Shown here: positions 27,592-48,458 of the stretch, in pieces
How the letters are laid out: each line of letters opens with the position of its first letter
How positions within the stretch are numbered: the first letter of the stretch is position 1
Assembly (NCBI GenBank): GCA_022848805.1
Contig: JAJISI010000002.1
Span: 1 to 51,533 of the forward strand
Reading direction: 5' to 3'
Length of the DNA: 51,533 nt
Source of the DNA: Thermoplasmatota archaeon
GTDB taxonomy: Archaea > Thermoplasmatota > Thermoplasmata > UBA10834
Program-made: the position numbers and the translations under genes
The notes under the pieces: generated by a model
Seen by the model: only the letters and a program-made list of their open reading frames with translations
Database searches by the model: none
What the model was told of the DNA's origin: nothing

Positions 27592-27603
27592 TGTGACAAC
27601 ACA

Positions 27604-29118: not shown

Positions 29119-29124
29119 CTTGAA

Positions 29125-30138: not shown

Positions 30139-30140
30139 GT

Positions 30141-30524: not shown

Positions 30525-30526
30525 CC

Positions 30527-33900: not shown

Positions 33901-34026
33901 GCTCGGCTGCTTCTCGACCAGGTACACCTTGAATCCTGAGTCGGCCAGGTCCAGCGCCGACTGCAGGCCTGAGATGCCCCCTCCGACGACCATGACCGCT
34001 CCGGTCTTGTCACTAGCTGCCATCAC
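30985..34026 (-). CDS. Double-length HdrA-family flavoprotein (1013 aa; two thioredoxin-reductase-like FAD modules in tandem)
   Basis: Half A (res 1-~435): [20 protein letters not shown], inserted ferredoxin (CTGCGSCAQKCP, CIGCGICAEEC), [15 protein letters not shown]. Half B (res ~445-1013): [16 protein letters not shown] Cys domain, [24 protein letters not shown]-terminal 2x[4Fe-4S] (CDGCGLCVPTC, CKGCGACIGACP). Confidence 0.9.
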   Translation of the reverse strand: MMAASDKTGAVMVVGGGISGLQSALDLADSGFKVYLVEKQPSIGGAMAQLDKTFPTNDCAMCIMAPKLVATGRHHNIELITNADIVKVDGQEGNFTVTGKQRALRVDASKCTGCGSCAQKCPIETTDEYNENTKVRKAIFVKYPQAVPLVYSIDQDKCIGCGICAEECKADAVDYDQKEKDFEIKVGSIIVSPGFDEFDPRLKAEYGYGVYQNVVSSIELERILSATGPHFGTVLRPSDGDIPEKIAFIQCVGSRDEKVGNEYCSGVCCMYSIKEAIIAKEHGGNIKPKIFFMDMRTFGKEFEEYYNRAKDEYGIEFVRSRVASVFEDPETKNLIVSYVEKGEPKEEEFGLVVLAVGLRPPEDAEALSKVMNFSLNDDGFCETGAFTPVSTSRPGVFVSGAFSSPKDIPMTVAEASGAAAKAASEISSARNTLVTKKEYPAETDVSEQEPRIGVFVCHCGINIGGVVNVPSVAEYAKSLPNVVYTEENLYTCSQDTQEKIKQMVKEHNLNRVVVASCTPRTHEPLFQNTIKEAGLNPYLFEMANIRDQCSWIHMHEPTAATKKSKDLVRMAVAKSRLLESLENLTIDVNQQALVVGGGAVGMVTALELAKQGVKVHLVEKEKELGGNLLKLHYLQSGDDPMEYVQSLAKEVTSDPNITTYIGKTIKDIDGYVGNFKTTLESGEEIEHGTVTLAVGGQEYKPDGEYLYGKNPGVMTLLEFKAKLKRGEAKGDSYVFIQCVGSREDGHPNCSRVCCAGTMTAAIKIKEKDPDAKVFVLYRDIRTYGFREKYYKEAAEKGVTFIRFDDDAKPVVEDKGGKIEVRVTDEDTDKEVVLTPDNLVLATGTRPSDGSEELAPMLKVPIMKEGFFLEAHMKLRPVDFATEGVYVAGLAHGPKFLDECIGQGLATVSRAMTVLSKTTLEAEGIVASLDETFCDGCGLCVPTCEYKALEIVPNEKEEGKKLVDVNVGLCKGCGACIGACPSGALTQKGFSDEQIVAMIDAALEETADKQEVKQ
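32381..32504 (-). repeat. Near-identical nucleotide tract shared with 42590-42713 (paralogous double-HdrA genes)
   Basis: Hand alignment at a constant offset of 10209 nt gives 115 of 124 positions identical, including perfect runs of 29, 22 and 40 nt. Confidence 0.8.
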
Positions 34027-34854: not shown

Positions 34855-36732
34855 TCACACCTCCTCCAAGGCCGCTTTGGCCTCCGCAAGCAGCTGCTGA
34901 TCCGTGTAGTGTGTCATGGTGATGGCATTCTCTGGGCAGGTGGCGCCGCAGCAACCACAGCCCTTGCACGCTGCGGCAATCACCTCGGTGACGCCCTCCT
35001 CGTTCTTCCTCAGGGCGCTGTACGGGCACGCTTCGACGCATGTCCCGCAGCCGCTGCATTTCGCCTCGTCGATTCTTGAAGTGAGCGCCTCGGCCTGGAC
35101 GAACCCGTTCGCAAGAGGTATCACTGCCCTCGAAGCAGCAGCAGCAGCTTGAGAGACGGCCTCCGTGATGTCGGCCGGTCCTCTGCAAGCCCCGCAGACG
35201 TACACTCCATCGGTCGCGAAGTCCACCGGTCTCAGTTTGACATGCGCCTCTTGGAAGAAGCCGTCTTGTCCGAGCGGGACCTTGAGCAGCTGCGATAGCG
35301 TGGCAGCGTCTGGCTGGGCCACGAGCGGAGTCGAGAGTATGACCAAGTCAACGGGCATCGTCCTCTCCATCTTCAGCGTCTCGTGGAAGTATCCGACTTC
35401 GAGCTTCCCGTCCTTGACGGATACCTTCGGAAGGTTGTCCGGCAGGTATCTGATGAACTTGACTCTCTTCTCCCTGGCTTTGTTGAACTCGAGCTCGTGT
35501 TCGACGCCGTACGCCATGACGTCCCTGTTGAACACCGTGACCTCGACACCACTGGACGGAGCAGCTGCCTCCTCACCGCCCTCATCCTCGTCACGCCGGC
35601 CTCTGCCCCGCCTTCTGCGCCTTCTTTCAGACCCCTCTTCCTCAGCCTTCTTCTCGGCGGTGGGTTCTTCCACGACCTCTCCCGTCTCTGCTGCCTTCTC
35701 CTCGGTCACGCCGAGCATGTTATCGCGGTTCTCGGCAATGTTCATCGCGCTCTTGATCGCGACGTTGCAGCAGATTCTGGAGCAGTACGAGACCGTCTGT
35801 CCTCTCGCACCAACGCACTGTATGAAAGCGACGCTTTTCAGCTTGGGCAGCTCCTTCTTGTTGCAGAGTTCCTCGAACTCTGTGGATGTTATGACGTTCG
35901 GGTGTTCCTTGTATCCGAACAGCCCCTCAGGTACCAGCGGCACCGCACCCGTGGCCACGATGATGGTGCCCACCTTGACTTCCTTCGCCTCAGCCCCATC
36001 CCCTCCTATGGAGACATCATAGTTGCCTATGAACCCCTCCACCGATGCGACGTGCGAGTTGAGGTGCTGGGTGATGTTCTTGTGTGCGTTCACCTTGTCG
36101 ATGAGAGGCTTGATCGTCTCGTTGGCGCTCTTGGTGGTCATCATGAGGCCGTGCAGGTTTTTCACGAACCCTCCGAGCTCCTGGTCCTTCTCGACGAGGT
36201 GCACCGGGAATTTCATGTTGGCGAGCGACAGCGCTGCCGTCATCCCGGACACGCCGCCTCCGACGACGAGCGCGGTGGGCGTGACATCGACCTTCGTCTC
36301 CTCCTGGGGTTCGAGGAACCGGGCTCTCGCAATACCCATCCTGACCAGGTCCTTCGCCTTCTGGGTCGCCTTCTCCTTCTCCTTCATGTGGACCCACGAG
36401 CAGTGCTCACGGATGTTGACAAAAGTGAACATGTACTTGTTCACGCCAGCAGCCTCGCATGTCCGCTGGAAGAGAGGTGCGTGTGTCCTGGGCGTGCAGC
36501 TCGACACGACGACTCTGTCGAGGTTGTGCTCCTTGATGCTGTCCTTGATGTTGTTGAGGCCGTCCTCGGCACATGTGTAGAGGTTGTCCGTCGCGTAGGC
36601 AACGTCCGGGAGGGTTGACGCATACTCGGTCACGGCCTTCACATCGACAAAGCCGCCTATGTTGGATCCACAGTGGCAGATGAATACTCCAATCCGTGGC
36701 TTCTCCTTCTCGGTGCTTGTGTTCTCGGGCAT
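34855..36732 (-). CDS. Short HdrA-family flavoprotein (half-B type: Cys domain + FAD module + C-terminal ferredoxin, no inserted ferredoxin) with a charged low-complexity insert
   Basis: PRIGVFICHCGSNIGG, VVGGGVSG, FIQCVGARG..CSRICC, CSGCGTCVEACP, CKGCGCCGATCP. It lacks DKTFPTxDC and the inserted CxxCxxCxxxC pair. The insert is EEKAAETGEVVEEPTAEKKAEEEGSERRRRRRGRGRRDEDEGGEE. Confidence 0.88.
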   Translation of the reverse strand: MPENTSTEKEKPRIGVFICHCGSNIGGFVDVKAVTEYASTLPDVAYATDNLYTCAEDGLNNIKDSIKEHNLDRVVVSSCTPRTHAPLFQRTCEAAGVNKYMFTFVNIREHCSWVHMKEKEKATQKAKDLVRMGIARARFLEPQEETKVDVTPTALVVGGGVSGMTAALSLANMKFPVHLVEKDQELGGFVKNLHGLMMTTKSANETIKPLIDKVNAHKNITQHLNSHVASVEGFIGNYDVSIGGDGAEAKEVKVGTIIVATGAVPLVPEGLFGYKEHPNVITSTEFEELCNKKELPKLKSVAFIQCVGARGQTVSYCSRICCNVAIKSAMNIAENRDNMLGVTEEKAAETGEVVEEPTAEKKAEEEGSERRRRRRGRGRRDEDEGGEEAAAPSSGVEVTVFNRDVMAYGVEHELEFNKAREKRVKFIRYLPDNLPKVSVKDGKLEVGYFHETLKMERTMPVDLVILSTPLVAQPDAATLSQLLKVPLGQDGFFQEAHVKLRPVDFATDGVYVCGACRGPADITEAVSQAAAAASRAVIPLANGFVQAEALTSRIDEAKCSGCGTCVEACPYSALRKNEEGVTEVIAAACKGCGCCGATCPENAITMTHYTDQQLLAEAKAALEEV

Positions 36733-36738
36733 GTCTGT

Positions 36739-39444
36739 TCACTCCCCTCCTGAATTGGCGAGGATCTCCGCTGCCTTGGCAGCCGCGCTCGATCCCTGGG
36801 CAACGGATTCCGGGATGTCGGCCGGTCCTGCGCAATATCCCGCGAGGTAGATTCCGGGCAGGCCACTCTTGCCGAAGCCCAGGATGCTATCGGGAGACTC
36901 GAAGAAGCCGAATTCCGTGAGCTTCAGCCCGAGCTTCTTCGCCAGTTCGACAGTGTCCTCCCTGGGGACGAGCGTCGTCGCGAGCACGACCGCGTCGAAC
37001 TCCTCTGATTGCTGCTTCCCCCCCACGTCGAAGACGACCACTGGATTGTTGGTCTCCGCGTTCTCCTGTACGGTTGCATCCGAGTTGATGTAGCTGACTC
37101 CGTAATCGCTCTTAGCCCTTTCAACGTACTCGTTGAACCCTTTCGCGCAGGCCCTCATGTCCTTGTAGAATATCGTGGAGTTGATGTCTTCGTAGTGTTC
37201 CCTGGCGAGCATAGCCTCTTTCGTGGCATGCATGCAGCACACTGAACAGCAATAGGGATGTCCCACCTGCGGGTTTCTCGATCCGACGCACTGGATGAAC
37301 GCCAGTTTCTTCGGATGCTCCCCATCGGATCGCCTCACGATGTGTCCTCCAGTGGGTCCTGAGGCGTTGATCATACGTTCATATTCCATCGCCGTGTAGA
37401 CGTTTGGGTACTTCTTGTAGCCGTACTCTGAGGCAGATGTCGGGTCCCACATATCGAAGCCAGTGGCGACTATGACCGCCGCCGGATTCAGCGTTACGAC
37501 CTGATCCTTCATGTTGTAGTCGATGGCGTCGGGGCCGCACGCAGTGGCGCACGCCTCGCACTGGGAGCACGGTCCGCAGTTCACGCATCGAGCCGCCTCC
37601 TTGAGCGCCTCCTCCTTGGTGAACACCTTCTCGACCTCCTCGAAAGAGGTCTTGCGCTTATCATCCGGAATGTGTTGCCTGAGGACACGCTCGCTCTTCG
37701 AGATATCTCCATCCATTCTCGCCTTGATGTCTTCGAGCGTGATCACATGCTCATTCTTCTCCTCTGGTTCCGGCTCGATGCTCTCACCGTTCAACGACTT
37801 CTCGATGTATCGAGCGGCTTTATTGCCCGCCGCGAACGCCTCGACAGCCGACGCGGGTCCTGAAACGGCATCTCCGCCTGCGAAGACGCCTGGGATGTTG
37901 GTGCTTAGGTTGCCGGGGTTGACCTCCAGGGTCTTCCACTTCGTGACCGCAAGGTCCTTCGAGCCAAGAGCGTCCAGGTCCGGCGCCTGGCTCACTGCTG
38001 GGATGACCGTGTCGACTTCGACGGTGAATTCCGACCCATCGACAGGCACTGGACGCGGACGGCCTGACTGGTCCGGCTCGCCGAGTTTCATCCTTATGCA
38101 CTCGATGGCCGTAATCTTGCCGTCCTTGCCCTGGATCTTGACCGGTGATGCCAAGAACTCGAACTTGACTCCTTCCTCTTCCGCTCCTTTGATCTCAGCT
38201 GCGATCGCGGGCATCTCGTCCTTCGTCCGGCGGTATATCACAGTCACATCGGAGCCCATGCGCAAGGCCGTTCTCGCGGCGTCCATCGCGGCGTTTCCCC
38301 CGCCTATGACTGCCACCTTCTTGCCGATCTTGACCGTCTCCTTGTCTGCGACCCTGTGAAGGAAGTCCACGCCATGGACAACCCCTTCCAGGTCCTCGCC
38401 CGGGACGCCCAGCTTGAGGCTCTTATGAGCCCCTATGGCCAGGAAGACGGCATCGTACTCTTTCTTCAGGTCCTCGAGCGCCAGATCCTTGCCGACGGTC
38501 TTGCCGTACTCGATCTCGATCCCGTGTGCCAACAGATGGTCCACCTCGGCGGTCAGCACATCCTTGGGAAGACGGTAGTCGGGGATGCCCCACCAGAGCA
38601 TCCCGCCGGGTTTCGATGTGGCCTCGAACATCTTAACCTTGAATCCTTTGAGCGCCAGACGGTAGGCTGCTGCCAGGCCGGCCGGGCCAGCTCCCACAAC
38701 CGCAACCTTCTCCTTCCGCTCCTCCTCGATTGGGGTCGGCACGTCCTCGCCCTGCTCGCGGACGTAGTCCCCGACGAAAGCCTTCAATCCCGCGATGGCT
38801 ACCGGTTCGTCGACGTCCGTTCTGTTGCAGCCCTCCTCGCAGGGGTGGTGGCATATGCGTCCACACACGGAGGGGAGCGGGATGGTCCTTCGTATCAGGT
38901 CCACCGCTTCCTTGAACTTCTCGGCTCGTATGAGTGCGACGTATCCCTGCGCGCTCAGGCCAGCCGGGCATTTGTCGGAACACGGCGCCACTCCTGCCCT
39001 GTCGATCGTTGCAGCTCTTGGCACTGATTGAAGGAACGGCACGTAGATCGCCGGCCTCTCCCTCATGCCCATATCGAATTCGTTCGGAAGGCTTACCGGG
39101 CACACCTTGAAACAGTCGCCACAGCCATTGCACTTCTCCTCGTCGACGAACCTGGCCTTCTTGAGCACATCAACCTTGAAATCACCGGCTTTCCCAGAGA
39201 TGTCCTTCACCTCTGAGTATGTCATCACATTGATACTGGGATGCGCGTAGCAGTCGGCCATCTTCGGCGCCAGGATGCAGATCGAGCAATCGTTCGTCGG
39301 GAAAGTCTTGTCCAACTGTGCCATTCTTCCGCCTATGCTGGGCAGTTTCTCGACAAGATCGACCTCGATCCCCCTCTCGGCTAGGTCCAAAGCAGCCTGT
39401 ATTCCGGCAATTCCGCCTCCGATTACCATTACGGATTTCGTCAA
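36739..39444 (-). CDS. HdrA-family flavoprotein (half-A type) with a nested GltD/NfnB-like NAD(P)H:FAD oxidoreductase module
   Basis: TTG start after GGGGGT. HdrA parts: [32 protein letters not shown] ... [15 protein letters not shown] ... GIYLAGYCAGPADIP. Inserted part (res ~150-620): CPAGLSAQGYVALIRAEKFKEAV..PSVCGRICHHPCEEGC, VAVVGAGPAGLAAA, VAVIGGGNAAMDAA, GVFAGGDA. Confidence 0.88.
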   Translation of the reverse strand: MTKSVMVIGGGIAGIQAALDLAERGIEVDLVEKLPSIGGRMAQLDKTFPTNDCSICILAPKMADCYAHPSINVMTYSEVKDISGKAGDFKVDVLKKARFVDEEKCNGCGDCFKVCPVSLPNEFDMGMRERPAIYVPFLQSVPRAATIDRAGVAPCSDKCPAGLSAQGYVALIRAEKFKEAVDLIRRTIPLPSVCGRICHHPCEEGCNRTDVDEPVAIAGLKAFVGDYVREQGEDVPTPIEEERKEKVAVVGAGPAGLAAAYRLALKGFKVKMFEATSKPGGMLWWGIPDYRLPKDVLTAEVDHLLAHGIEIEYGKTVGKDLALEDLKKEYDAVFLAIGAHKSLKLGVPGEDLEGVVHGVDFLHRVADKETVKIGKKVAVIGGGNAAMDAARTALRMGSDVTVIYRRTKDEMPAIAAEIKGAEEEGVKFEFLASPVKIQGKDGKITAIECIRMKLGEPDQSGRPRPVPVDGSEFTVEVDTVIPAVSQAPDLDALGSKDLAVTKWKTLEVNPGNLSTNIPGVFAGGDAVSGPASAVEAFAAGNKAARYIEKSLNGESIEPEPEEKNEHVITLEDIKARMDGDISKSERVLRQHIPDDKRKTSFEEVEKVFTKEEALKEAARCVNCGPCSQCEACATACGPDAIDYNMKDQVVTLNPAAVIVATGFDMWDPTSASEYGYKKYPNVYTAMEYERMINASGPTGGHIVRRSDGEHPKKLAFIQCVGSRNPQVGHPYCCSVCCMHATKEAMLAREHYEDINSTIFYKDMRACAKGFNEYVERAKSDYGVSYINSDATVQENAETNNPVVVFDVGGKQQSEEFDAVVLATTLVPREDTVELAKKLGLKLTEFGFFESPDSILGFGKSGLPGIYLAGYCAGPADIPESVAQGSSAAAKAAEILANSGGE

Positions 39445-39604: not shown

Positions 39605-41206
39605 TCATTCCAACGCCTCCGCAATCGCAACACTCAGGTCCTTGATCTTAATGTCCACCTGCTCCTTCGGGACTCCCTCGAGTTTGTTGTCTCGTGTGCA
39701 AGCCAGATGGATCAGGCATTTGTAGCAGCCCGTGACCAAACAATCCGCCCCCGTCTTCTTCGCTTCCTTCAGCCTCTCCACCTGTATCTTTCTCGCGGTC
39801 TCGTCGCAGGTCGTCCACGCGCTCACGCCGCAGCAGAGCGCCTTGTCCCTGGTGTTCTCCATCTCGATTATCTCCGTACCCTCTGAGGCTTCGAGTGCGG
39901 CCCTCGGCGGGTCGTATATGTCGAGGTGCCGGCCAAGCCTGCATGAGTCCTGGAAGGTCAGCTTCCTGGCGCTTGGCTTGAGCTTCAACTTCCCCTCCTT
40001 CACCAGGTCGTCCACGAGCTCTGAGACATGCGTCAGCTCGAACTCGAAATCTCCCATGAAGTCCTGGTAGTCCATGTCGAAGGTCCTCATGCACTCGGGG
40101 CACGAGAACACAACCTTCTTCGCGCCAGAGGCCTTGATCAGGTCGACATTCTTCTTCATCAGCTTCTGGAGGCCCGCCTCGTCCCCCGTCCAGTTGAGGT
40201 CGTGCCCGCAGCAGACCTCGTCGTTGCTCACCACCGGGACAATTCCTGCCTTGTTCATTATCTTCACGACCGCCTGGGGTATACCTGACAGGTTGAGTTC
40301 CCTGTCGTTGAACAGCGCGTCGAAGTATGAGACGCAGCCCGTGAAGTAGAACACCTCGCCCTTCTCTGCGACCTTCAGCTCCTGTGTCAGCCACCCGAGC
40401 CTGTCCTGTTTGAAGTCGCCGTATGCTTGGACCCGCATGAGCCCCTGTATGATCCCACCCTGACTGCACGTCGGTGTGCTGTCCATCTTGACGGCCTCGG
40501 CCCGAAGACCCCTGATGAACCCAGAGTAGTCGACCTCGTACGGACACATGGAGTTGCACTGCTCGCATGTGATGCAGGTCCATATGTCCCCGCCCGTCGT
40601 GATCGCCTCCGTCTGCCCCTCCGTCGCCTTGAGGACTATCGTTCTCGGAGCGAAGTCCGGGTCATGCTTCGCGACAGGACACACGGTCGTGCACTTGCCG
40701 CATTCGACGCAGTCGAAGGCGCCGGTGTCCTCGATGAGTTGATCGACCTTCCGTTTCAAGCTGGCCGGATCGATGCTACCAGCTTTGGGCTGCTTCGGGA
40801 TGGGGTTGGGTCCGAGCTTCCTTATCTGCTCGGTAAACTCCTTCATCGTTGCGGCGAACTTCTGGCCTTCGGACGCGGATATCCACTCGAGGCGCATCCT
40901 GTCCCTGCCTATTCCGACGATGTCGAGCAGCTCCTGGGTCGTCTTCATCCGCTTCTCCGCTTCGACGTTGCCCGATATGTAGTGGCAGTCACCGATATGG
41001 CAGCCTGCGACCAGGACGCCGTCGGCTCCCAGCTCGAGCGCTTTGAGTATGAAGTACGGTTCCACCCGGCCGGAGCACATGACGCGTATGATGCGCGCGT
41101 TGGGCGGGTACTGCATCCTGCTGACGCCCGCGAGGTCAGCACCTGCGTACGAGCACCAGTTGCAGCAGAAGGCGACGATGTTCGGCTCGAACTCGTCCCC
41201 GCTCAT
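39605..41206 (-). CDS. MvhD-HdrC-HdrB triple-domain fusion (soluble HdrD-like CCG reductase with N-terminal MvhD)
   Basis: Res 1-~135 MvhD ([48 protein letters not shown]). Then 2x[4Fe-4S] ([24 protein letters not shown]). Then two CCG domains ([17 protein letters not shown] and [17 protein letters not shown]). Confidence 0.88.
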
Positions 41207-44200
41207 GCCTTCGCCTCCCGTTCCTCGTCGTCATCTGCAAGCGCCGCCTCTATCATCGTGATTATCTGGTCGCTCCTGAAATGCTTGGACCGGATGGCCC
41301 TGGAACAACACTCGACCACACACGAACCGCAGCCTTTGCACAGCGCCTCGTTCACCTTCGACTTGAACACTCCGGGGGAGACCTCCTCGAGCCTCGGGGC
41401 GCCGTATTCGCAGAGGTCCACGCATCTCCCACAGCCGATGCATTTTTCCTCGTCGACCACGCTGACGACGCCCTCGCCCTCTATGAACGGCTTGGAGAGG
41501 ACCGTGTTGACCCTCGCGGCCGCGGCCAGCGCCTGCGAGATGCTCTCGTCGATCAGCCGCGGTGAGTGGGCTAGGCCGCAGAGGAATATGCCATCGGTCG
41601 CGAAGTCGACCGGCCTGAGCTTCATGTGCGCCTCGAGGAAGAACCCCTCCTCGTTCTGCGGTACCTTCAATTTCTGGGCTATGTCCTTGTTGTCGGGGTT
41701 AGGATGGACTGCGGCGTTCAGCACGACATAGTCCGGCCTGATCGTGATGGTCTCCTCTATGAACTTCTCGTCGATCTCGACGATTATGCCATCGCCGTCC
41801 GCTCTCACCTTGGGGGGCGATTCAGGGTCGTACCTTAGGAATCTCACCCCCTGACGGGCGGCCTCGTTGTAGTTCTCTTCTGCGAAGCCGAACGTGCGTA
41901 TGTCCCTGAACAGGATGTACACGCTCGTCTCGGGGTGCTCCTCTCGTATCTTGAGCGCGTTGGCCATCGCCGTGGAGCAGCATATCCTCGAGCAGTTCGG
42001 GTGCTCTTCGTTCCTCGAACCGACGCATTGAATTATTGCGACGGCCTTCGCGTCAAGCTCGCCCTTCGCCAGCATATCTCCCAGGTCGGTCTGTTTGATG
42101 ACCTTCGGGTGCTGGCCGCAGAGGTATTCCGTCGGTTCGTACTCCACCGCACCGGAGGCGACGACCACCGCTCCGTGTTTGATCTCTTCGCCGCCTTTCA
42201 GGGTGGTCTCGAAGTTGCCTATGTACCCTTTGACCTCCTCGACGGTCTCTCCGAGGTGTATCGTGACGTTCGTGTTGTCCTGCAAGTCCTTCTTGAGGTT
42301 TGCAAGGGTTTCCTGAGGGTTCACGCCTGCGAGCGTGTGGTGGATCCTCCTCATGTGCCCTCCCAACTCCTTCTCCTTTTCGACTATGTGTACCTCGTAT
42401 CCCGCCTTGGCTATCTCCAGCGCCGCGGTCATACCGCTCAACCCTCCGCCTATCACCAGTGCGGCCGGGGTGACCGGTATCTTCGGCTGAGGGAGCGGTT
42501 CGAGCATGGATGCCTTCGCGACTGCCATGCGCACGAGGTCCTTCGACTTCTCGGTGGCGGCCTCCGGTTCCAACCTGTGGACCCACGAGCATTGGTCCCG
42601 TATGTTCGCCATCTCGAAGAGATACTTGTTGAGCCCCGCCTCTCTGACGGTGTTCTGGAACAGCGGTTCGTGTGTCCTGGGCGTGCAGCTCGCGACGACC
42701 ACCCTGTTCAGGTCGTGCTCGTCGATCATCTCCTTGATCTTCTTCTGCGTGTCCTGAGAACAAGTGTACAGGTTTTCCTCCGCGTATACGACACCAGGGA
42801 GCTTGGAGGCGTACTCCATCACCCCAGGCACGTCTACGACGGATCCTATGTTGATCCCGCAATGGCAGACGAACACCCCTATCCTGGGTTCCTTGTCCGT
42901 CACGTCCTTCTCCTCGGGATACTCCTTCTTCGTGACCAGCTTGCCCCTCTCGTCTGAGAGCAAGGCGGCCGCCTTCCCTGCAGCTCCGCTTGCCTGAGCG
43001 ACAGAATCGGGTATGTCCTTCGGGCCGGAGAACGCCCCGCAGACGTAGATTCCTGGCACCGAAGTATCGACAGGCGCGAGCTCGTCGGTTTCGCAGAAGC
43101 CGAACTTGTTCATATTCATGCCAAGCGATTTCGCGAGCGCTTTCGAGGATTCCGGTGGCGTCGCCCCGGATGCCAGTACGACCATATCGAAAGTCTCATC
43201 TTCGATGTCAGCGCCATCTATGAAGCCGAGTACGAGGTCGCTCGTCCCGGGGTTCTCCTGGACCTTCGCGATCCTGTTGTTCCTGAACATCCTGACGCCG
43301 TACTCATCCTCCGCCCGGTGCAGATACTCCTCGAACTCCTTCCCGAAAGCTCTGGTATCCATGAAGAATATGGTCGTCTTGAGCCCCGGAACATGCTCCT
43401 GGGCGATGACCGCTTGCTTCAAGGCTGCCATACAGCAGTACGAGGAGCAGTAGGTGTTCGGCGTCTGTGCGTCCCTGGAGCCGACGCATTGTATGAACGC
43501 GATATTTTTCGGCACGTCCCCGTCCGAAGGCCTGATCACATGCCCCTCTGTAGGGCCTGACGCGCTCAACATCCTCTCGAACTCGATGTTGCTGAGCACG
43601 TTGGGGAACGTGCCATGACCGTACATCACCTTCTTTGAAGAGTTGTATACGTCGTAGCCTGGCGCGAGGATTATGGCGCCGACGTCTATGGTCTCTTCGA
43701 TATCTGGGTCCATGTCGTATTTGATGGCCTCAGCCTCGCAGAACTTCTCGCAGATGCCGCATCCGATGCACAGCCCTCTGTCGATGGTGTATATCAACGG
43801 GACTGCCTGCGGGAACGGTACATATATCGCCTTCGCGGGCGCCAGCTCCCTGTCGAATGCGCTGGACCACTCAATGGGACAGTGCTCCGCACACACGCCG
43901 CAGCCGGTGCACTTCTCCTCGACGATGTACCGTGAGTACTTGGCGAGTGTTACCTTGAAGTTCCCGGCCTGCCCCTCGACCTTCTTGAGAACGGAATAGG
44001 TGAGCATTGTGACATTCTCATGCCTGCCGGTCGCGACGAGCTTCGGGGACAGTATGCACATCGAGCAGTCGTTCGTCGGGAATGTCTTATCGAGCTGCGA
44101 CATAGTCCCTCCGATGCTCGGCGTCGTCTCCAGAAGATACACCTTGAACCCTGAATCCGCGAGATCCAGTGCGGCCTGCATCCCCGCCGGTCCGCCGCCG

Positions 44201-44238
44201 ATGACCAGGACGGCACCTACCCGCTCGTTCTTTGTCAT
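41203..44238 (-). CDS. Double-length HdrA-family flavoprotein (1011 aa), paralogue of 30985-34026
   Basis: Same half-A/half-B order: [58 protein letters not shown]. Then [61 protein letters not shown]. Confidence 0.9.
42590..42713 (-). repeat. Near-identical nucleotide tract shared with 32381-32504
   Basis: See the 32381-32504 entry. The tract encodes the conserved [26 protein letters not shown] segment of half B. Confidence 0.8.
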
Positions 44239-44240: not shown

Positions 44241-44684
44241 CTACGCACCCTCCTGAGCGATCGGTCCTAGCTGCTCGAGGTCAGACACCATTTCCCTGAT
44301 GACTTTGGCGAACTTCTGCCCTTCAGAACCAGCGATCCACTCGATTCTGAAGCGTTCCGGCTCTATGCCCGTCTCCTCTAAGAACTCCTCCAGGAAGTCG
44401 CCTCTCGTCGCGGTCTTCTCGTTGCCGTTGATGTAATGGCAGTCTGAGGGATGGCACCCAGCGACTATCACCCCGTCCGCTCCGAGCGTGAATGCCTTGA
44501 GGACGAACGCAGGGTCCACCCTCCCCGAACACATGACTCTCACGATCCTCACGTTCGGCGGATACTGCATCCTCGTGGTGCCCGCGAGGTCCGCGCCTGC
44601 GTACGAGCACCAGTTGCAGCAGAACGCGACTATTTTGGGCTCGTAGCTCGGCTGGTCCTGCTTGGCTTCTGACTGCTCTGCCAC
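44241..44684 (-). CDS. mvhD: MvhD (FlpD-family) subunit
   Basis: [61 protein letters not shown]. Confidence 0.9.
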   Translation of the reverse strand: MAEQSEAKQDQPSYEPKIVAFCCNWCSYAGADLAGTTRMQYPPNVRIVRVMCSGRVDPAFVLKAFTLGADGVIVAGCHPSDCHYINGNEKTATRGDFLEEFLEETGIEPERFRIEWIAGSEGQKFAKVIREMVSDLEQLGPIAQEGA

Positions 44685-44686: not shown

Positions 44687-45604
44687 TCAGACCCCCCTGA
44701 GCTTCCTGAGGAACGAGTGTGCCGACACGTGGTGCGTGTCGAACCCGAGCGATATCGGGTCGATGCCCATCGCCAGCGCCTGGAACTGAGCCACGTGCAT
44801 CACAGGGATGCCGTCCTTGGTGAAAGCCTTCTGGGCGTTGTCGAACTGGAGCAGACAGAAAGGGCAGCCAGTGACGATGCAGTCCGCCTCAGCAGCGACG
44901 ATGTTCCTGCATTTGTCTTCCGTGAGGGAATTGGCCAGCTCCACCACGTGAGACCTGACGCCTCCACCAGCGCCGCAGCAGTCCAGCTTGTCTTCGTAGT
45001 CGACGCTCGTCGCACCGCACGCCTCGATTATCTGGTCGATCTTGACGGGGTCGTTGGGGTCGTCGATGGTCTGGTTCTCGGTCGGTCTAAGATAATGGCA
45101 CCCATAGTGTACCGCCGCTTTGATGTTCTTGAGCGGCCGCGTGGTACGTTTCTGGACCTCTTCGAGACTGATGTCATTCGTCATGACGTCCACATAGTGC
45201 CTGACCTTGACCGGCTCCATTATCCGTCTCCGGCCCTCGGTCTTCCGAGGGGTACCCGTGTATTTCTTTCCTATCTGCGCCAGCATCCGGTTGACCTTTC
45301 CCCTCCTCTTGGAGTCCTCGAGGTACTCCGTCGCCTTGAGAAGTGAGGTGAGACAGCCGTTGCAGACGGTTAGTATCTCCCTGCGCTCCTTCTGCCCCAG
45401 GACGAGGTTGCGGGAGGCCAGCAACAACCATGTGTCTTTGTCCGATGAGTAGAATATTCCTGGCACCGGGCAGCACGAGAACTCCTTGATATCCGCGACA
45501 TCGAGGTCGTACCCTTCCTTGCCACAGACCCACCTGACCGCGTACTCGACGCCCGGGTATCTGTTCGGTATTATGCACCCGAAGAAGTAGGCGTAGCTGG
45601 TCAT
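44687..45604 (-). CDS. hdrB: Heterodisulfide reductase subunit B (two CCG domains)
   Basis: YFFGCIIPNRYPG..SCCPVPG..CNGC and HYGCHYLRP..CCGAGGG..GCPFC. Confidence 0.92.
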   Translation of the reverse strand: MTSYAYFFGCIIPNRYPGVEYAVRWVCGKEGYDLDVADIKEFSCCPVPGIFYSSDKDTWLLLASRNLVLGQKERREILTVCNGCLTSLLKATEYLEDSKRRGKVNRMLAQIGKKYTGTPRKTEGRRRIMEPVKVRHYVDVMTNDISLEEVQKRTTRPLKNIKAAVHYGCHYLRPTENQTIDDPNDPVKIDQIIEACGATSVDYEDKLDCCGAGGGVRSHVVELANSLTEDKCRNIVAAEADCIVTGCPFCLLQFDNAQKAFTKDGIPVMHVAQFQALAMGIDPISLGFDTHHVSAHSFLRKLRGV

Positions 45605-46179
45605 GCCTTCACCTCCTCCTCGATGCCGATGAGCTTGTCGTATCCGACCGCGTGGACGAGCACGTTGATTTCCTTTATCACCTTCGCGTACTCCGCCCCT
45701 CGCGAGGGAACGTCCTCGAGATCTAGCTCCTTCCGGATCTTCTCGACCTCCAGGTCAGGTTTCACGCTCTGGCCGTACTTCACCAGGTTGGCAGCCGCCA
45801 CCTTTATGAACGGCGGTATGACCCCTTCCCTGATAGCGATGTGCCTAAGCGCGATCATGACCTCCGCAGGGTTGATATCGGCTGGACAGTGCTCGTAGCA
45901 TCTGTAGCATGTTGCGCACACCCATTGTGTTCCGAGTGTGAGCGTCTTGAGGCCGAACTGGCAGTACTTGATGATGCTCCTGGTCTTGTAGTCTATCTTG
46001 AGGCTGATCGGGCACACACCTGTACAGTTTCCGCACTGCAGGCATGTCATGACGTCCTTGCCGCCGTACTTGACGATCTCCTTCGCGAAACCAGGCTCCA
46101 ACTGTGACTCGTCTATGACCTTGTCCTCGACCAGCTTCTCGCGCAGGCCGCTCAGGAAGACCTTCTCCACCTCCCCCAT
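45601..46179 (-). CDS. hdrC: Heterodisulfide reductase subunit C
   Basis: CLQCGNCTGVCP and CATCYRCYEHCP ferredoxin motifs in a 192-aa protein. ATGA overlap with hdrB. Confidence 0.92.
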   Translation of the reverse strand: MGEVEKVFLSGLREKLVEDKVIDESQLEPGFAKEIVKYGGKDVMTCLQCGNCTGVCPISLKIDYKTRSIIKYCQFGLKTLTLGTQWVCATCYRCYEHCPADINPAEVMIALRHIAIREGVIPPFIKVAAANLVKYGQSVKPDLEVEKIRKELDLEDVPSRGAEYAKVIKEINVLVHAVGYDKLIGIEEEVKA

Positions 46180-48281
46180 TACGACACCTCCTCCTCGGCA
46201 GCGGGTTTCTTCGCCATTTCCTTCGTCTTGCCTCCGCCGCTCTCCACGTCCTCGAGCGCGGAAACGATCTCAGAGGTGATCTGGTCGTCTGTGAATTGGT
46301 TCGCTACGATCGCTTTCTGCGGGCACGCGGCCACGCATGTTCCACAGCCATGGCACAGCGCCTCGATGACCCTGGCTTTCGTGCCCTTCTCTCCTTCGTA
46401 CAGCTCGGGAGCACGGTACGGGCACATCTCGACGCATAGCCCGCATGCCACGCAGAGATCCTCATCGACCATAGCAGTCAACGGCTCGATTTTGACCTTC
46501 TTACCGGACATGACGCAAGCGGCAGAAGCTGCCGCGGCCTTCGCCTGGGCGATGGAATCGGGGATATCCTTGGGGCCCTGCGCACACCCTGCGAGATATA
46601 TGCCGTCCATGGCCGTGTCGACCGGCCGTAGCTTCGGGTGTGCCTCCATGAAGAATCCGTCCGGGCTCAGTGACAGCGCGAGCGTCTTGCCGATACGCTT
46701 ACTTCCTTCCGACGGAAGGAGTCCCGTCGAGAGCACCACGAGGTCGAACTCCCTCTCGGTTATCTTGTTTAGAAGGGTCTCCTCTGCCCTGATCGTGATT
46801 GACTTGGTCTCGGGGTCCTCGCTCAACTTCGCAGGCCGGCCTCTTATGAACTCTACGCTGTACTCCTCTCTCACGCGATGGTAGAGCTCCTCGAAACCCT
46901 TACCGAACGCCCGGATGTCGTTGTAGTAAACCGATATCTCGGTCTCAGACGCGTGCTCCTTGATGATCTGCGCGTTCTTGATTGCATACATGCAGCACAC
47001 GCGCGAGCAGTAGTTGTTGCCAATCTTCTTGTTCCTTGAGCCGACGCACTGTATGAATGCTATCCTCTCAGGAGCCTCGCCGTCTGATGGACGGATGAGG
47101 TGTCCTCCAGTCGGCCCAGCGGCGTTGATGAGCCGCTCCAATTCCAGGCCGGTTATGACGTTCGGGTACTCCCAGTACTTGTACACTCCCCGCTTCTTCG
47201 GCAGGTAGGTGTCGTAGCCTGTCGCGACGATTATCGTTCCTACCTTGAGGTCGACGAGCTCGTCCTCCATCTCGTGGTCTATCGCATTGTTTTGGCAGGC
47301 CTTGAGACAGGCCTTGCACTTGCCGTTCTTGAAATGTATGCAGTTGTCCTTGTCGATCGTGTATATGAGGGGAACCGCCTGGGGGAACGGCACGTATATG
47401 GCCTTCCTCTTGCCGTATCCAAGGTCGAACTTGTTGTCGACCTTCACCGGGCATACATCCGCGCAGACCCCGCAACCAACGCACTTGTCCTCGATGACGA
47501 ACCTTGATTTCCTTCTGACCTTGATGTCGAAGTTGCCGATGAATCCCTGAACGTCCTCCACCTCGGAGTACGACATCAGGGTGATGTTCGGGTGTCGTGC
47601 GACATCCACCATCTTAGGCGCTAGTATGCATATCGCACAGTCGCCCGTCGGGAAGGTCTTGTCTAGCTGTGCCATCCGGCCACCGATGCTAGGTTCGGAC
47701 TCGACGAGGTAGACTTTGAATCCCATCTGGGCCAGGTCGAGGGCTGCCTGTATTCCTGCCACTCCTCCGCCTATGACCAGTGAGGTCTGCTCCACAGGCA
47801 CCTCACGGGCCTCGAGGGGCACGAGTCTGGAAGCCTTGGCGACTCCCATCCTAACAAGGGCGATTGCCTTCCTCGTGGCCTCTTCCTTCTGCTGGGAGTG
47901 TACCCAGGAACACTGCTCCCGCAGGTTGACCATCTGTAGAAGGTAAGGGTTCAGTCCCGCCTGTTTGATGCAGTTCCTGAAGGTTGGCTCATGCATCCTA
48001 GGCGAGCACGCGGCGACCACCACGCGATTGACGTGGTTCTCCTTGATCGCCTTGATGATCTCATCCTGTCCAAGGTCGGAGCAGGTGTACTTGTTCCCCT
48101 TCGAGACGACGACTCCTGGTAATCTCTCCGCGGATTCCCGGACCTTTTCGACGTCAACCGTACCAGCGATGTTGCTGCCGCAGTGACACACGAAAACGCC
48201 GACCCTAGGCTCTTCGTCCCCGCTCTCCCGTTCGGGCTTCTTCTGAGCGGAGTTCTCTTCGAGTGACTCGGGTGAACTCAT
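46179..48281 (-). CDS. hdrA: Heterodisulfide reductase subunit A, canonical four-domain form
   Basis: [16 protein letters not shown] Cys domain, VIGGGVAG, DKTFPTGDCAIC, inserted ferredoxin (CVGCGVCADVCP ...CKACLKAC), [16 protein letters not shown]-terminal CVACGLCVEMCP and CHGCGTCVAACP. The ATG at 48281 follows AGAGGGA. The upstream ATG at 48353 lacks an SD. TAATG overlap with hdrC. Confidence 0.92.
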   Translation of the reverse strand: MSSPESLEENSAQKKPERESGDEEPRVGVFVCHCGSNIAGTVDVEKVRESAERLPGVVVSKGNKYTCSDLGQDEIIKAIKENHVNRVVVAACSPRMHEPTFRNCIKQAGLNPYLLQMVNLREQCSWVHSQQKEEATRKAIALVRMGVAKASRLVPLEAREVPVEQTSLVIGGGVAGIQAALDLAQMGFKVYLVESEPSIGGRMAQLDKTFPTGDCAICILAPKMVDVARHPNITLMSYSEVEDVQGFIGNFDIKVRRKSRFVIEDKCVGCGVCADVCPVKVDNKFDLGYGKRKAIYVPFPQAVPLIYTIDKDNCIHFKNGKCKACLKACQNNAIDHEMEDELVDLKVGTIIVATGYDTYLPKKRGVYKYWEYPNVITGLELERLINAAGPTGGHLIRPSDGEAPERIAFIQCVGSRNKKIGNNYCSRVCCMYAIKNAQIIKEHASETEISVYYNDIRAFGKGFEELYHRVREEYSVEFIRGRPAKLSEDPETKSITIRAEETLLNKITEREFDLVVLSTGLLPSEGSKRIGKTLALSLSPDGFFMEAHPKLRPVDTAMDGIYLAGCAQGPKDIPDSIAQAKAAAASAACVMSGKKVKIEPLTAMVDEDLCVACGLCVEMCPYRAPELYEGEKGTKARVIEALCHGCGTCVAACPQKAIVANQFTDDQITSEIVSALEDVESGGGKTKEMAKKPAAEEEVS

Positions 48282-48458
48282 GATTTCCCTCTTTGCTCGG
48301 GTAGTCGAATCAAATCCAGGACGAGAGAGACCACGGAAACAAAGCGTCGCCATCTGACGCTTACACTCGACTCTGGCAGTTCTGACGAGGTGTGTGTAAT
48401 AAAGGAGCCCTTAATATAGCTTTCGTTATCCATGTTTCGAAAAACGCAGGGTCCTTAG

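What the first reader, a model, noticed from the sequence alone, without database searches (positions are those of the whole stretch)
41203..44238. Double HdrA as a covalent, asymmetric HdrA pseudo-dimer with complementary domain loss
Canonical HdrA (as at 46179-48281) has four parts: an N-terminal Cys domain, a TrxR-like FAD domain with DKTFPTxDCxxC, an inserted 2x[4Fe-4S] ferredoxin and a C-terminal 2x[4Fe-4S] ferredoxin. It works as a homodimer.

In this 1011-aa protein, half A (res 1-~435) keeps [15 protein letters not shown] and the inserted ferredoxin, but has neither the N-terminal Cys domain nor the C-terminal ferredoxin. Half B (res ~450-1011) keeps the Cys domain ([11 protein letters not shown]), a GxGxxG FAD site and the C-terminal ferredoxin. 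It lacks the DKTFPTxDC motif and the inserted ferredoxin.

Together the halves carry exactly one copy of each accessory domain around two FAD folds. That is what a subfunctionalised, covalently linked heterodimer would look like. The split resembles the QmoA (FAD-only) / QmoB (HdrA plus extras) division known from sulfate reducers, but here it is in one chain.
Basis: partly seen in the sequence, partly recalled or inferred. Interest (0 to 1): 0.7.

Follow-up and report, generated by a model that had tools for sequence, protein, structure and literature searches.

The report
Fused two-in-one HdrA flavoprotein
This archaeal gene encodes two unequal copies of the electron-splitting flavoprotein HdrA joined in one chain, each keeping the accessory parts the other has lost. 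The reading is correct, but this protein type is already described, common in anaerobes, and has a reported cryo-EM structure (BamE).

Summary
Window 41203-44238, on the minus strand, is one uninterrupted 1011-aa ORF.

- **Half A (res 1-~430):** HdrA's FAD domain with [12 protein letters not shown], the inserted 2x[4Fe-4S] ferredoxin and the flavin-N5 lysine (K274).
- **Half B (res ~450-1011):** HdrA's N-terminal Cys domain, a diverged FAD domain lacking the Cys pair, the inserted ferredoxin and the lysine (A759), then the C-terminal ferredoxin.

The "covalent asymmetric pseudo-dimer" interpretation is supported but not new.

- Chadwick et al. 2022 proposed exactly this complementarity for fused and tandem HdrAs.
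- Borrel et al. 2014 noted the long HdrA with two FAD sites in Methanomassiliicoccales.
- A 2026 cryo-EM preprint describes BamE of class II benzoyl-CoA reductase as a fused HdrA dimer with one bifurcating and one non-bifurcating FAD.

The window protein is 47% identical, colinear over residues 10-1003, to a Geobacter BamE orthologue. All 80 genome loci retrieved were full-length, spanning at least 12 bacterial and archaeal lineages.

Here it sits in a ~21 kb co-directional Hdr/Mvh gene cluster of a Thermoplasmata archaeon. The cluster also holds a canonical HdrA, a second fused paralogue and an unfused A/B pair. Its likely role is the single-circuit bifurcating core of a BamDEF-like module with the adjacent MvhD and MvhD-HdrCB fusion. 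The physiological substrates are unknown.

The parts
41203..44238 (-). Fused double HdrA (dHdrA-1), 1011 aa plus stop codon
   Evidence: ORF. Pfam finds two FAD/Rossmann regions and two Fer4 regions. Three-part match to solved HdrA chains.
42949..44238 (-). Half A (res 1-430): thioredoxin-reductase-like FAD domain with inserted ferredoxin. It has no N-terminal domain and no C-terminal ferredoxin.
   Evidence: 49% identical to the canonical HdrA of the window.
44056..44091 (-). [12 protein letters not shown] (res 50-61). C58/C61 correspond to Cys194/Cys197 of M. thermolithotrophicus HdrA.
   Evidence: My count on the alignment printed. C58 and C61 are conserved in 45/46 family members. The C61 codon is an in-frame TGA in five bacterial homologues.
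43699..43941 (-). Inserted 2x[4Fe-4S] ferredoxin domain of half A (res ~100-180; [22 protein letters not shown])
   Evidence: The eight Cys are conserved in at least 45/46.
43417..43419 (-). K274, the equivalent of HdrA Lys409 and BamE Lys280 (the flavin-N5 lysine of the bifurcating FAD)
   Evidence: Alignments. K in 45/46. The role of this lysine in BamE is from the preprint.
42892..42948 (-). Conserved linker (res 431-449, ...[19 protein letters not shown])
   Evidence: Nearly invariant L434, V435, E439, Y440, P441 and E443 in A1. 'YPPEKDV' is also present in the Geobacter BamE orthologue.
42484..42891 (-). N-terminal Cys domain of half B (res 450-585; [11 protein letters not shown]; C458, C460, C493, C518)
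   Evidence: Matches HdrA residues 3-163 at 195 bits. The Cys are conserved in 42-44 of 46.
41494..42471 (-). Diverged FAD domain of half B (res 590-915). It keeps GGGLSG, E620 and the C738/C749/C753/C754 cluster. It lacks the Cys pair, the inserted ferredoxin and the lysine (A759).
   Evidence: Its core is only about 30-32% identical to A-type cores.
41284..41466 (-). C-terminal 2x[4Fe-4S] ferredoxin domain of half B (res 925-985)
   Evidence: The eight Cys are invariant in 46/46.
44241..44684 (-). MvhD-type [2Fe-2S] adaptor (147 aa), 2 nt upstream of dHdrA-1
   Evidence: Pfam FlpD, 1.7e-56. Gap sizes.
39605..41206 (-). MvhD-HdrC-HdrB triple fusion (533 aa). Its start overlaps the dHdrA-1 stop by 4 nt.
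   Evidence: Pfam FlpD plus Fer4 plus two CCG domains. Two CxxCxxCxxxC and two CCG motifs. The dHdrA plus MvhD+CCG pairing is conserved in relatives L002 and L004.
44687..48353 (-). Canonical hdrA-hdrC-hdrB upstream on the same strand with overlapping or near-zero gaps (HdrA 46179-48353, HdrC 45601-46179, HdrB 44687-45604)
30985..34026 (-). Second fused double HdrA paralogue (dHdrA-2, 1013 aa, 55% identical, same domain map)
34855..39444 (-). Unfused A/B pair. The A-type HdrA carries an NfnB/GltD-like insertion (36739-39444, 901 aa). The B-type HdrA follows it (34855-36732, 625 aa).
27044..30988 (-). mvhD (30527-30988), mvhG-like (29125-30534), mvhA-like (27604-29118) and hydrogenase maturation protease (27044-27532), directly downstream of dHdrA-2

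Best explanation
The gene encodes a BamE-type fused HdrA: a single chain that stands in for the HdrA homodimer but contains only one complete electron-bifurcation circuit.

**Shown by sequence.**
- Half A supplies the FAD with the conserved N5 lysine (K274), the redox-active Cys pair (C58/C61), the FAD-domain [4Fe-4S] cluster and the inserted two-cluster ferredoxin.
- Half B supplies the N-terminal cluster domain, the C-terminal two-cluster ferredoxin, and a second FAD fold that keeps the ADP-binding motifs but has lost the lysine (A759), the Cys pair and the ferredoxin insert.

**Inferred from canonical HdrA and from the BamE cryo-EM description.**
- Electrons enter from an MvhD-type [2Fe-2S] adaptor through the C-terminal ferredoxin of half B and reach the FAD of half A.
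- The high-potential electron leaves through the half-A FAD-domain cluster to the HdrC/HdrB-like clusters of the adjacent MvhD-HdrCB fusion.
- The low-potential electron leaves through the N-terminal-domain cluster of half B (next to C58/C61 of half A) and the inserted ferredoxin of half A, to ferredoxin or a docked partner.
- The FAD and cluster of half B are structural or off-pathway.

**Least certain.** The donor is probably H2, via the MvhAG-type hydrogenase encoded further down the same strand. The high-potential acceptor is probably a disulfide reduced at the two CCG sites. Both are guesses from gene context.
For: - **Domain map:**
- **Family-wide conservation of exactly the asymmetric features:** C58/C61 45/46 and K274 45/46, in half A only; all Fe-S Cys conserved; GxGxxG plus the acidic residue in both halves.
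- **Relaxed half-B flavin pocket:** the lysine position is K in only 29/46 and is A759 here (T in dHdrA-2). The position aligned with D408 of half A is variable.
- **Divergence:** the half-B core is about 30% identical to A-type cores, whereas half A is 49% identical to canonical HdrA.
- **BamE homology:** 47% identity, colinear over residues 10-1003, to the 1018-aa protein inside a bamBCDEFGHI-like cluster of a Geobacter sp.. The preprint reports for BamE a fused HdrA dimer, an FAD in both domains, Lys280 and Cys59-Cys62 at the bifurcating FAD of the first half, seven clusters E1-E7, and a non-bifurcating second FAD. My residue counts put the Geobacter sp. equivalents at K278 and C57/C60, a consistent offset of 2.
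- **Structure prediction:** AlphaFold2 gave pLDDT 79.4 and pTM 0.80. Foldseek's best matches are HdrA chains (8rwn_A TM 0.91, 50% id; 5odc_A TM 0.74).
- **Operon coupling:** a 2-nt gap after mvhD and a 4-nt overlap into the MvhD-HdrCB gene. That pairing is conserved in relatives L002 and L004.
- **Independent support for the partnership:** the same A/B partition exists as adjacent separate genes in this window. A+B fusions of about 1470-1500 aa with the NfnB insert exist in databases.
Against:
- The loops carrying C58 (res 47-58) and the N-domain cysteines (res 461-466) are modelled with pLDDT below 50.
- The BamE structure is a preprint, and its coordinates are not in the PDB copies searched.
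- In 29/46 family members, including the BamE orthologue, half B keeps a lysine at the CC+5 position. Sequence alone therefore does not prove that the second FAD is inert across the family.
- No donor or acceptor has been shown for this protein. Its sub-operon also encodes a complete canonical HdrABC plus MvhD, so partner assignment is ambiguous.
Confidence: 0.75

Rival explanations
1. Both FADs are catalytic. The chain would be a true double enzyme with two bifurcation or redox sites, the half-B flavin serving a second reaction (for example a non-bifurcating two-electron relay feeding its own adjacent cluster).
For: Half B keeps GxGxxG, E620 and its own four-Cys cluster in at least 43/46 members. 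Most family members (29/46) keep a lysine at the CC+5 position of half B. The BCRII preprint reports that the second domain of BamE does bind FAD.
Against: In this protein and its paralogue the lysine is replaced (A759; T in dHdrA-2). Half B has no Cys pair and no inserted ferredoxin, so it has no low-potential exit. The half-B core evolves faster. The BamE authors judge the second FAD to be off the branching point.
Confidence: 0.12
2. It is a functional BamE, that is, a subunit of a class II benzoyl-CoA (or related aryl-CoA) reductase.
For: 47% identical and colinear with a BamE orthologue. Many of the bacterial loci retrieved carry bamB/C/D/F/G/H/I-like neighbours.
Against: The window has no tungsten AOR-type BamB, no BamC and no NuoEFG-like BamGHI. 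All neighbours are Hdr, Mvh or Hyp genes. The closest relatives (L001, L002, L004) show Hdr/MvhD contexts, and the Methanomassiliicoccales loci show MvhD/Mvh hydrogenase contexts.
Confidence: 0.03
3. The fusion is an artefact: two adjacent genes (A-type and B-type) merged by an assembly or sequencing error.
For: An unfused A/B gene pair does exist 2 kb downstream in the same window.
Against: There is no stop or frame change. Most of the best database hits are about 1000 aa. All 80 genome loci, from many phyla, cover residues ~1-1000. The linker is conserved. A second fused paralogue lies in the same window.
Confidence: 0.01
4. It is a Qmo-like module (QmoA plus QmoB in one chain) feeding a sulfur-metabolism reductase.
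For: It resembles Qmo in having two HdrA-like flavoproteins of unequal domain content (from general knowledge of QmoABC). Hdr-like proteins in non-methanogens are often linked to sulfur metabolism.
Against: The window has no QmoC-, AprAB- or Sat-like genes. The protein is a full-length colinear homologue of BamE and of the long Methanomassiliicoccales-type HdrA. No direct sequence comparison with Qmo proteins was made.
Confidence: 0.03

Closest known systems
BamE of class II (tungsten) benzoyl-CoA reductase BamBCDEFGHI (Geobacter metallireducens; cryo-EM preprint 10.64898/2026.04.10.717634)
   Same: - Same length class (1011 vs 1018 aa) and same A-then-B domain order.
- 47% identity, colinear over residues 10-1003, to a Geobacter sp. 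orthologue.
- The same Cys pair and lysine in the first half, two FAD folds, and seven [4Fe-4S] motif sets.
- Partnered with an MvhD-like adaptor and an HdrBC/HdrD-like CCG protein.
   Different: - There is no BamB/BamC tungsten catalytic unit and no BamGHI NADH/ferredoxin input module here.
- The partners are an MvhD, an MvhD-HdrC-HdrB fusion and, nearby, a [NiFe] Mvh-type hydrogenase.
- Half B has Ala where the BamE orthologue has Lys at the CC+5 position.
- The host is an archaeon.
Long HdrA of Methanomassiliicoccales (Borrel et al. 2014, PMC4153887), the HdrA of their proposed HdrABC-MvhADG complex
   Same: - Described there as longer than other HdrAs, with two predicted FAD sites, and encoded next to mvhDGA.
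- Methanomassiliicoccales loci L005, L013 and L016 carry full-length homologues next to Mvh genes.
- Same class (Thermoplasmata).
   Different: - The protein in the finding (dHdrA-1) is not next to mvhGA. Its paralogue dHdrA-2 (30985-34026) is, and dHdrA-2 is the closer relative of the Methanomassiliicoccus copy (62.8% vs 55.4%).
- dHdrA-1 belongs to a separate paralogue clade (70-84% to L001, L002 and L004).
Fused HdrA3/HdrA4 and tandem HdrA5/6 and 12/13 of ANME archaea, and the HdrA of the Moorella MetFV-HdrABC-MvhD complex (Chadwick et al. 2022, PMC9012536)
   Same: The concept is identical. Presence and absence of Cys197, the N-terminal domain and the C-terminal ferredoxin are complementary, so the fusion 'may act as its own heterodimeric partner'.
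   Different: For HdrA3/4 the paper states that the N-terminal half carries the N-terminal domain and lacks Cys197. That is the opposite order to the one here. I did not compare sequences with ANME or Moorella proteins directly.
Canonical HdrA homodimer of HdrABC-MvhADG (PDB 5ODC, 8RVU, 7BKB)
   Same: Every domain of the fused protein matches a canonical HdrA domain. Foldseek TM scores reach 0.91. All cofactor motifs are recognisable.
   Different: The canonical enzyme has two identical four-domain chains giving two symmetric circuits. The fused protein has one chain and one circuit. It scores below the NCBIfam cut-offs for HdrA and HdrA2 (998 < 1100; 733 < 1400).
QmoA/QmoB of sulfate reducers
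   Same: Two HdrA-related flavoproteins of unequal domain content work together (general knowledge).
   Different: They are separate polypeptides, work with membrane-bound QmoC and APS reductase, and have a different domain distribution. No such genes are in the window. This is an analogy, not a demonstrated relationship.

Membership tests
BamE-type (A-then-B) fused HdrA | Full-length colinear homology to a BamE encoded in a bamBCDEFGHI cluster | tested here: met
   L059 (Geobacter sp.) has AOR, ferredoxin, CCG protein, a 1018-aa HdrA-like protein, MvhD-like, NuoE-like, NuoF-like and NuoG-like genes in order. BLASTP gives 47% identity over residues 10-1003 in a single HSP.
BamE-type (A-then-B) fused HdrA | Two thioredoxin-reductase-like FAD folds in one chain, both with dinucleotide-binding motifs | tested here: met
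   GGGPAG(14)/E37 and GGGLSG(597)/E620. The glycines are conserved in 45-46 of 46, and the acidic residue is E or D in 45 of 46, in both halves.
BamE-type (A-then-B) fused HdrA | Cys pair (BamE C59-C62) and flavin-N5 lysine (BamE K280) in the first half only | tested here: met
   C58, C61 and K274 are present. Half B has no Cys in the aligned stretch and has A759 at the lysine position.
BamE-type (A-then-B) fused HdrA | Seven [4Fe-4S] sites (E1-E7): 2 in the C-terminal ferredoxin, 1 in the N-domain, 1 in each FAD domain, 2 in the inserted ferredoxin | tested here: met
   All seven Cys motif sets are present and conserved. Cluster occupancy itself cannot be tested in silico.
BamE-type (A-then-B) fused HdrA | The halves pack like the HdrA homodimer in three dimensions | tested here: inconclusive
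   AF2 pTM 0.80 and pLDDT 79.4. Foldseek matches single HdrA chains only.
Class II benzoyl-CoA reductase (functional BamE) | Co-encoded with the tungsten AOR BamB, BamC and NuoEFG-like BamGHI | tested here: not met
   No such genes among any of the annotated ORFs of the window.
Canonical HdrA / HdrA2 (NCBIfam equivalogs) | Score above the curated cut-off; a single four-domain chain | tested here: not met
   NF040770 scores 998 against a cut-off of 1100. NF041778 scores 733 against 1400. NF041891 scores 693 against 1300. Each match is split into three stretches.
Long HdrA of Methanomassiliicoccales (HdrABC-MvhADG) | Longer HdrA with two FAD sites, encoded next to mvhDGA | tested here: inconclusive
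   Length and the two FAD sites are met. Adjacency to mvhD-mvhG-mvhA holds for the paralogue dHdrA-2 but not for dHdrA-1. dHdrA-2 is the closer relative of the Methanomassiliicoccus copy.
ANME HdrA3/HdrA4 fusions (Chadwick 2022) | Complementary Cys197 / N-terminal domain / C-terminal ferredoxin between the halves | tested here: met
ANME HdrA3/HdrA4 fusions (Chadwick 2022) | Order of the halves: the N-domain-bearing, Cys197-lacking half comes first | tested here: not met
   Here the Cys-pair half comes first and the N-domain half second. The paper states the opposite order for HdrA3/4.
QmoAB | Association with QmoC and AprAB; two separate flavoprotein subunits | tested here: not met
   It is a single chain, and the window has no Qmo or Apr genes. 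Sequence relatedness to Qmo proteins was not tested.

The most novel reading that the evidence does not exclude
dHdrA-1, with its conserved partner the MvhD-HdrC-HdrB triple fusion, may be a minimal two-polypeptide, BamDEF-like electron-bifurcating enzyme. It would belong to Thermoplasmata related to, but possibly distinct from, the methanogenic Methanomassiliicoccales. It would act on a donor/acceptor pair not yet described for HdrA-type enzymes, rather than simply duplicating H2:heterodisulfide/ferredoxin chemistry. The window would also preserve the whole evolutionary series on one strand of one gene cluster: symmetric HdrA, an unfused A/B pair, and the fused A-B chain.
Probability: 0.2. 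Interest if true: 0.45.

Novelty: new member of a known kind. Interest (0 to 1): 0.25.

Why it matters
HdrA-type flavin-based electron bifurcation is central to energy conservation in methanogens, methanotrophs, sulfate reducers and anaerobic degraders of aromatic compounds.

The fused form matters mechanistically. It forces a single, asymmetric circuit and shows which parts of the symmetric dimer are dispensable. That point has already been made in the literature and has now been visualised for BamE.

This window adds a well-preserved archaeal example. It has two fused paralogues, an unfused A/B pair and a canonical HdrA side by side. It also supports a quantitative statement: across 46 diverse members the catalytic signatures are strictly kept in half A and relaxed in half B. 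This is useful for annotation, because such proteins are currently labelled simply 'HdrA family protein' and fall below the equivalog cut-offs. It also helps in choosing a compact system for biochemistry. It does not open a new question.

Tried and rejected
- **Solved fused HdrA.** I looked by sequence and by fold. Only canonical HdrA chains and the Hyphomicrobium HdrA-like protein 6TJR are present. The BamE entries cited in the preprint are not in either copy, so no direct structural comparison was possible.
- **Specific family model.** NCBIfam has no model for the fused form; the protein hits HdrA/HdrA2 models only below cut-off. Pfam gives only generic FAD and Fer4 domains.
- **Superposition on the 5ODC dimer.**
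- **HdrA molecular-evolution preprint (10.1101/2024.09.26.615249).** It does not use any of the fusion, duplication or tandem terms I searched for.
- **Misassembly.** Considered and rejected.
- **Benzoyl-CoA reductase subunit.** Considered and rejected: no Bam catalytic or input genes.
- **Internal stop or selenocysteine.** Considered and rejected: Cys is encoded at both positions, although bacterial homologues have TGA at the C61 position.
- **Context survey caveat.** My crude ORF caller splits Sec-containing genes and mislabels some neighbours. I use that survey only for broad context classes.

Full report
**1. What is there**

The finding's coordinates (41203-44238) hold one uninterrupted ORF on the minus strand: ATG start, 1011 aa. 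Pfam sees two FAD/Rossmann regions (around residues 10-48 and 594-702) and two iron-sulfur ferredoxin regions (around 104-175 and 927-980).

A search against all solved-structure sequences matches canonical HdrA in three pieces, in permuted order:
- Residues 10-424 match HdrA 154-569 (FAD domain plus inserted ferredoxin).
- Residues 442-602 match HdrA 3-163 (N-terminal Cys domain).
- Residues 856-1002 match HdrA 514-655 (end of the FAD domain plus C-terminal ferredoxin).

I aligned the two halves with the window's own canonical HdrA (46179-48353) and ran a motif scan.
- **Half A** has [18 protein letters not shown] (50-61), two CxxCxxCxxxC motifs in an inserted domain, the FAD-domain cluster motif QCVGSR...CSSYCC and CCMAALK. 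It has no N-terminal domain and no C-terminal ferredoxin.
- **Half B** has [23 protein letters not shown]...CSRICC and two C-terminal CxxCxxCxxxC motifs. It has no cysteine where DKTFPTxDCxxC would be. A clean gap replaces the inserted ferredoxin.

By my count on the alignment, C58/C61 correspond to Cys194/Cys197 of the M. thermolithotrophicus enzyme, and K274 corresponds to Lys409. The only correction is the strand.

**2. It is not an artefact, and it is not rare**

Most of the best 120 are about 1000 aa, at 65-95% identity, and the named ones are Thermoplasmata, Thermoplasmatota or Methanobacteriota MAG proteins called 'HdrA family protein'.

The exhaustive search of 50%-identity representatives lists 150 proteins above 645 bits. 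Most of the roughly 1000-aa ones align as one colinear stretch over about residues 5-1000, with identities down to 34%.

They come from Thermoplasmata, Methanomassiliicoccales, Bathyarchaeia, Asgard archaea, Nitrososphaeria, Chloroflexota/Dehalococcoidia, many Desulfobacterota, Geobacter, Syntrophorhabdus, Bacillota, Nitrospirota, Planctomycetota and others.

The linker ('YPxEKDV...PRIGV') is conserved from this archaeon to Geobacter. That conservation suggests an old fusion in the A-then-B order, possibly a single event.

**3. Asymmetry is the conserved feature**

I aligned 46 diverse members, 34-55% identical to the query.
- The Cys pair (C58, C61) is present in 45/46 and K274 in 45/46. D408 of the GPKDIP motif is present in 44/46. 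All of these are in half A only.
- All 28 Fe-S cysteines (seven sites) are kept in at least 42/46.
- GxGxxG is kept in at least 45/46, and the acidic residue is E or D in 45/46, in both halves.
- In half B, the position aligned with the N5 lysine is K in only 29/46. It is Ala here (A759) and Thr in the paralogue. The position aligned with D408 is variable.

Half A is 49% identical to the canonical HdrA. The half-B FAD core is only about 30% identical to A-type cores, and B-types group with each other at 42-54%.

So both halves very probably bind FAD. Only half A keeps the catalytic environment, and half B evolves under relaxed constraint.

In five bacterial homologues the codon aligned with C61 is an in-frame TGA ([12 protein letters not shown]). 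I read this as selenocysteine, which underlines that this residue is redox-active.

**4. Structure**

AlphaFold2 with a 30-sequence alignment gave mean pLDDT 79.4 and pTM 0.80. That indicates a reasonably confident global arrangement. Confidence is low in the loops that need cofactors (47-58, 461-466).

Foldseek against the PDB returns HdrA chains first: 8rwn_A with TM 0.91 and 50% identity, most plausibly matching half A, and 5odc_A with TM 0.74 over 656 columns. The Hyphomicrobium HdrA-like protein follows, then thioredoxin reductases.

No fused HdrA is in either PDB copy. I could not superpose the model on an HdrA dimer because coordinates are not returned.

**5. Link to a characterised protein**

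Locus L059 (Geobacter sp.) encodes, in order:
- an AOR-type tungsten enzyme
- a small ferredoxin
- a CCG protein of 383 aa
- a 1018-aa HdrA-like protein
- an MvhD-like protein
- NuoE-, NuoF- and NuoG-like proteins

This is the bamBCDEFGHI arrangement. Its BamE is 47% identical to the window protein in a single alignment over residues 10-1003.

The 2026 cryo-EM preprint on the G. metallireducens enzyme makes these statements:
- Both thioredoxin-reductase-like domains bind FAD.
- The N-terminal one is the bifurcating flavin, with Lys280 3.4 A from N5 and a Cys59-Cys62 pair.
- There are seven clusters. E1/E2 in the C-terminal ferredoxin take electrons in. E4 passes them to BamD. E3, E5 and E6 lead to the low-potential output.

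The equivalents in the Geobacter sp. orthologue are K278 and C57/C60 (an offset of 2), and here K274 and C58/C61. The window protein therefore has the BamE architecture.

**6. Prior descriptions of the idea**

- Chadwick et al. 2022 (PMC9012536) describe HdrAs of more than 1000 aa. [quoted passage not shown] They note the same for the HdrA of the Moorella MetFV-HdrABC-MvhD complex. For their HdrA3/4 they give the opposite order of halves to the one seen here.
- Borrel et al. 2014 (PMC4153887) noted that the HdrA of Methanomassiliicoccales is longer, has two predicted FAD sites and sits next to mvhDGA.
- A 2024 survey of archaeal fusions reports duplicated-HdrA fusions in Asgard and TACK archaea, often further fused to MvhD.

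Its own 'would refute' clause is met on description: such proteins are a well-described family. A function is established only for BamE.

**7. Context in this window**

All of the following lie on the minus strand, and most junctions are overlaps or gaps of 6 nt or less.

| Gene | Coordinates |
|---|---|
| hypF fragment and hypD | 50391-51527 and 48675-49790 |
| canonical hdrA | 46179-48353 |
| hdrC | 45601-46179 |
| hdrB | 44687-45604 |
| mvhD | 44241-44684 |
| dHdrA-1 | 41203-44238 |
| MvhD-HdrC-HdrB fusion | 39605-41206 |
| 160-nt gap | |
| A-type HdrA with NfnB/GltD-like insertion | 36739-39444 |
| B-type HdrA | 34855-36732 |
| long MvhD (288 aa) | 34023-34889 |
| dHdrA-2 | 30985-34026 |
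| mvhD | 30527-30988 |
| mvhG-like | 29125-30534 |
| mvhA-like | 27604-29118 |
| maturation protease | 27044-27532 |

The rest of the window is housekeeping: his operon, Cdc48, pyruvate:ferredoxin oxidoreductase and a class II aminoacyl-tRNA synthetase.

The window therefore contains the symmetric form, an unfused complementary pair in A-then-B gene order, and two fused A-B chains. Fused A(NfnB)-B proteins of about 1470-1500 aa also exist in the databases.

dHdrA-2 is the closer relative of the Mvh-linked copy of Methanomassiliicoccus (62.8% vs 55.4%). dHdrA-1 forms its own clade with 70-84% relatives. In two of those three relatives the next gene is again an MvhD+CCG fusion (L002 and L004).

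Across the 80 loci the fused HdrA appears in four recurring contexts (a crude ORF calling):
- Bam-type clusters
- dHdrA-MvhD-MvhG-MvhA
- HdrC-HdrB-dHdrA
- an unfused A+B pair, then a long MvhD, then dHdrA

**8. Mechanism proposed**

*Shown:* the cofactor motifs and their asymmetric conservation.

*Inferred from HdrA and BamE:*
- Electrons enter from an MvhD [2Fe-2S] through the half-B C-terminal ferredoxin to the half-A FAD.
- The high-potential branch runs through the half-A FAD-domain cluster to the HdrC- and HdrB-like clusters of the MvhD-HdrCB fusion. That fusion has two ferredoxin motifs and two complete C...CCG...CxxC motifs.
- The low-potential branch runs through the half-B N-domain cluster, next to C58/C61, and the half-A inserted ferredoxin to ferredoxin.
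- The half-B FAD and cluster are structural.

*Speculative:* H2 as donor via the downstream Mvh-type hydrogenase, and a (hetero)disulfide as acceptor.

I give the architectural and mechanistic reading about 0.75. The specific substrates are much less certain.

**9. Verdict**

The kind is already known, and it is widespread. This is a new member of a known kind. Its value lies mainly in annotation and in offering a compact comparative example. Interest 0.25.

Noticed in passing
window 30985-34026 (-): There is a second fused double HdrA (1013 aa, GTG start as listed). It is 55% identical to the first and has the same domain map. It is flanked by a long MvhD (34023-34889) and by mvhD-mvhG-mvhA plus a protease. 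It is the closer relative of the Mvh-linked long HdrA of Methanomassiliicoccus (62.8% vs 55.4%).
   Followed up: partly
window 34855-39444 (-): An unfused complementary pair lies here. The first gene is an A-type HdrA (901 aa: no N-domain, [12 protein letters not shown], lysine kept) with a roughly 470-aa NfnB/GltD-like NAD(P)H-flavoprotein insertion inside its inserted ferredoxin. The second gene is a B-type HdrA (625 aa: N-domain, no Cys pair, no insert, C-terminal ferredoxin). Databases hold fused versions of about 1470-1500 aa.
   Followed up: partly
window 39605-41206 (-): A triple fusion of MvhD, HdrC and HdrB in one 533-aa protein overlaps the stop codon of dHdrA-1 by 4 nt. Both CCG motifs look complete. 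Longer MvhD+CCG fusions (657-658 aa) follow the orthologous dHdrA in L002 and L004.
   Followed up: partly
window 34023-34889 (-); also L003, L005, L006, L010, L011, L012, L065: A recurring pattern is 'long MvhD (~250-290 aa), then dHdrA, then short MvhD (~145-160 aa)'. The long form is similar in size to the BamF adaptor, which the BCRII preprint says is more than 100 aa longer than MvhD. Whether the long form is BamF-like was not tested.
   Followed up: no
L044, L047, L061, L073, L078 (match start +~54-61 codons): An in-frame TGA sits exactly at the codon aligned with C61 ([12 protein letters not shown]) in bacterial homologues from Desulfosarcina, Syntrophobacteraceae, Syntrophorhabdaceae and Bacillota. 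This is most likely selenocysteine. The archaeal window protein has Cys.
   Followed up: partly
window 34855-36732 (-), residues ~345-395 of the 625-aa protein: The B-type HdrA carries a highly charged low-complexity insertion (…EEEGSERRRRRRGRGRRDEDEGGEE…) between the FAD-domain cluster motif and the next strand. It is absent from the other HdrA copies.
   Followed up: no
window 29125-30534 (-): The MvhG-like small hydrogenase subunit is 469 aa, but the VhuG model matches only from residue 133. Either the true start is further downstream or there is an N-terminal extension of about 130 aa.
   Followed up: no
window 46179-48353 (-): Homology of the canonical HdrA ORF to HdrA models begins only at residues ~46-50.
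   Followed up: no
L022 and L025: The records are titled Bacteroides salyersiae and Dialister hominis (gut 'cleanbin' assemblies). L022 carries a fused HdrA followed by MvhD-MvhG-MvhA, as in Methanomassiliicoccales, which suggests a mis-binned archaeal contig. L025 carries the fused HdrA only.
   Followed up: no
window 877-5369 (+): Two large tetratricopeptide-repeat proteins lie here (626 and 899 aa as listed; their ORFs overlap). The second has an N-terminal Mrr-type restriction-endonuclease domain. They are unrelated to the finding.
   Followed up: no
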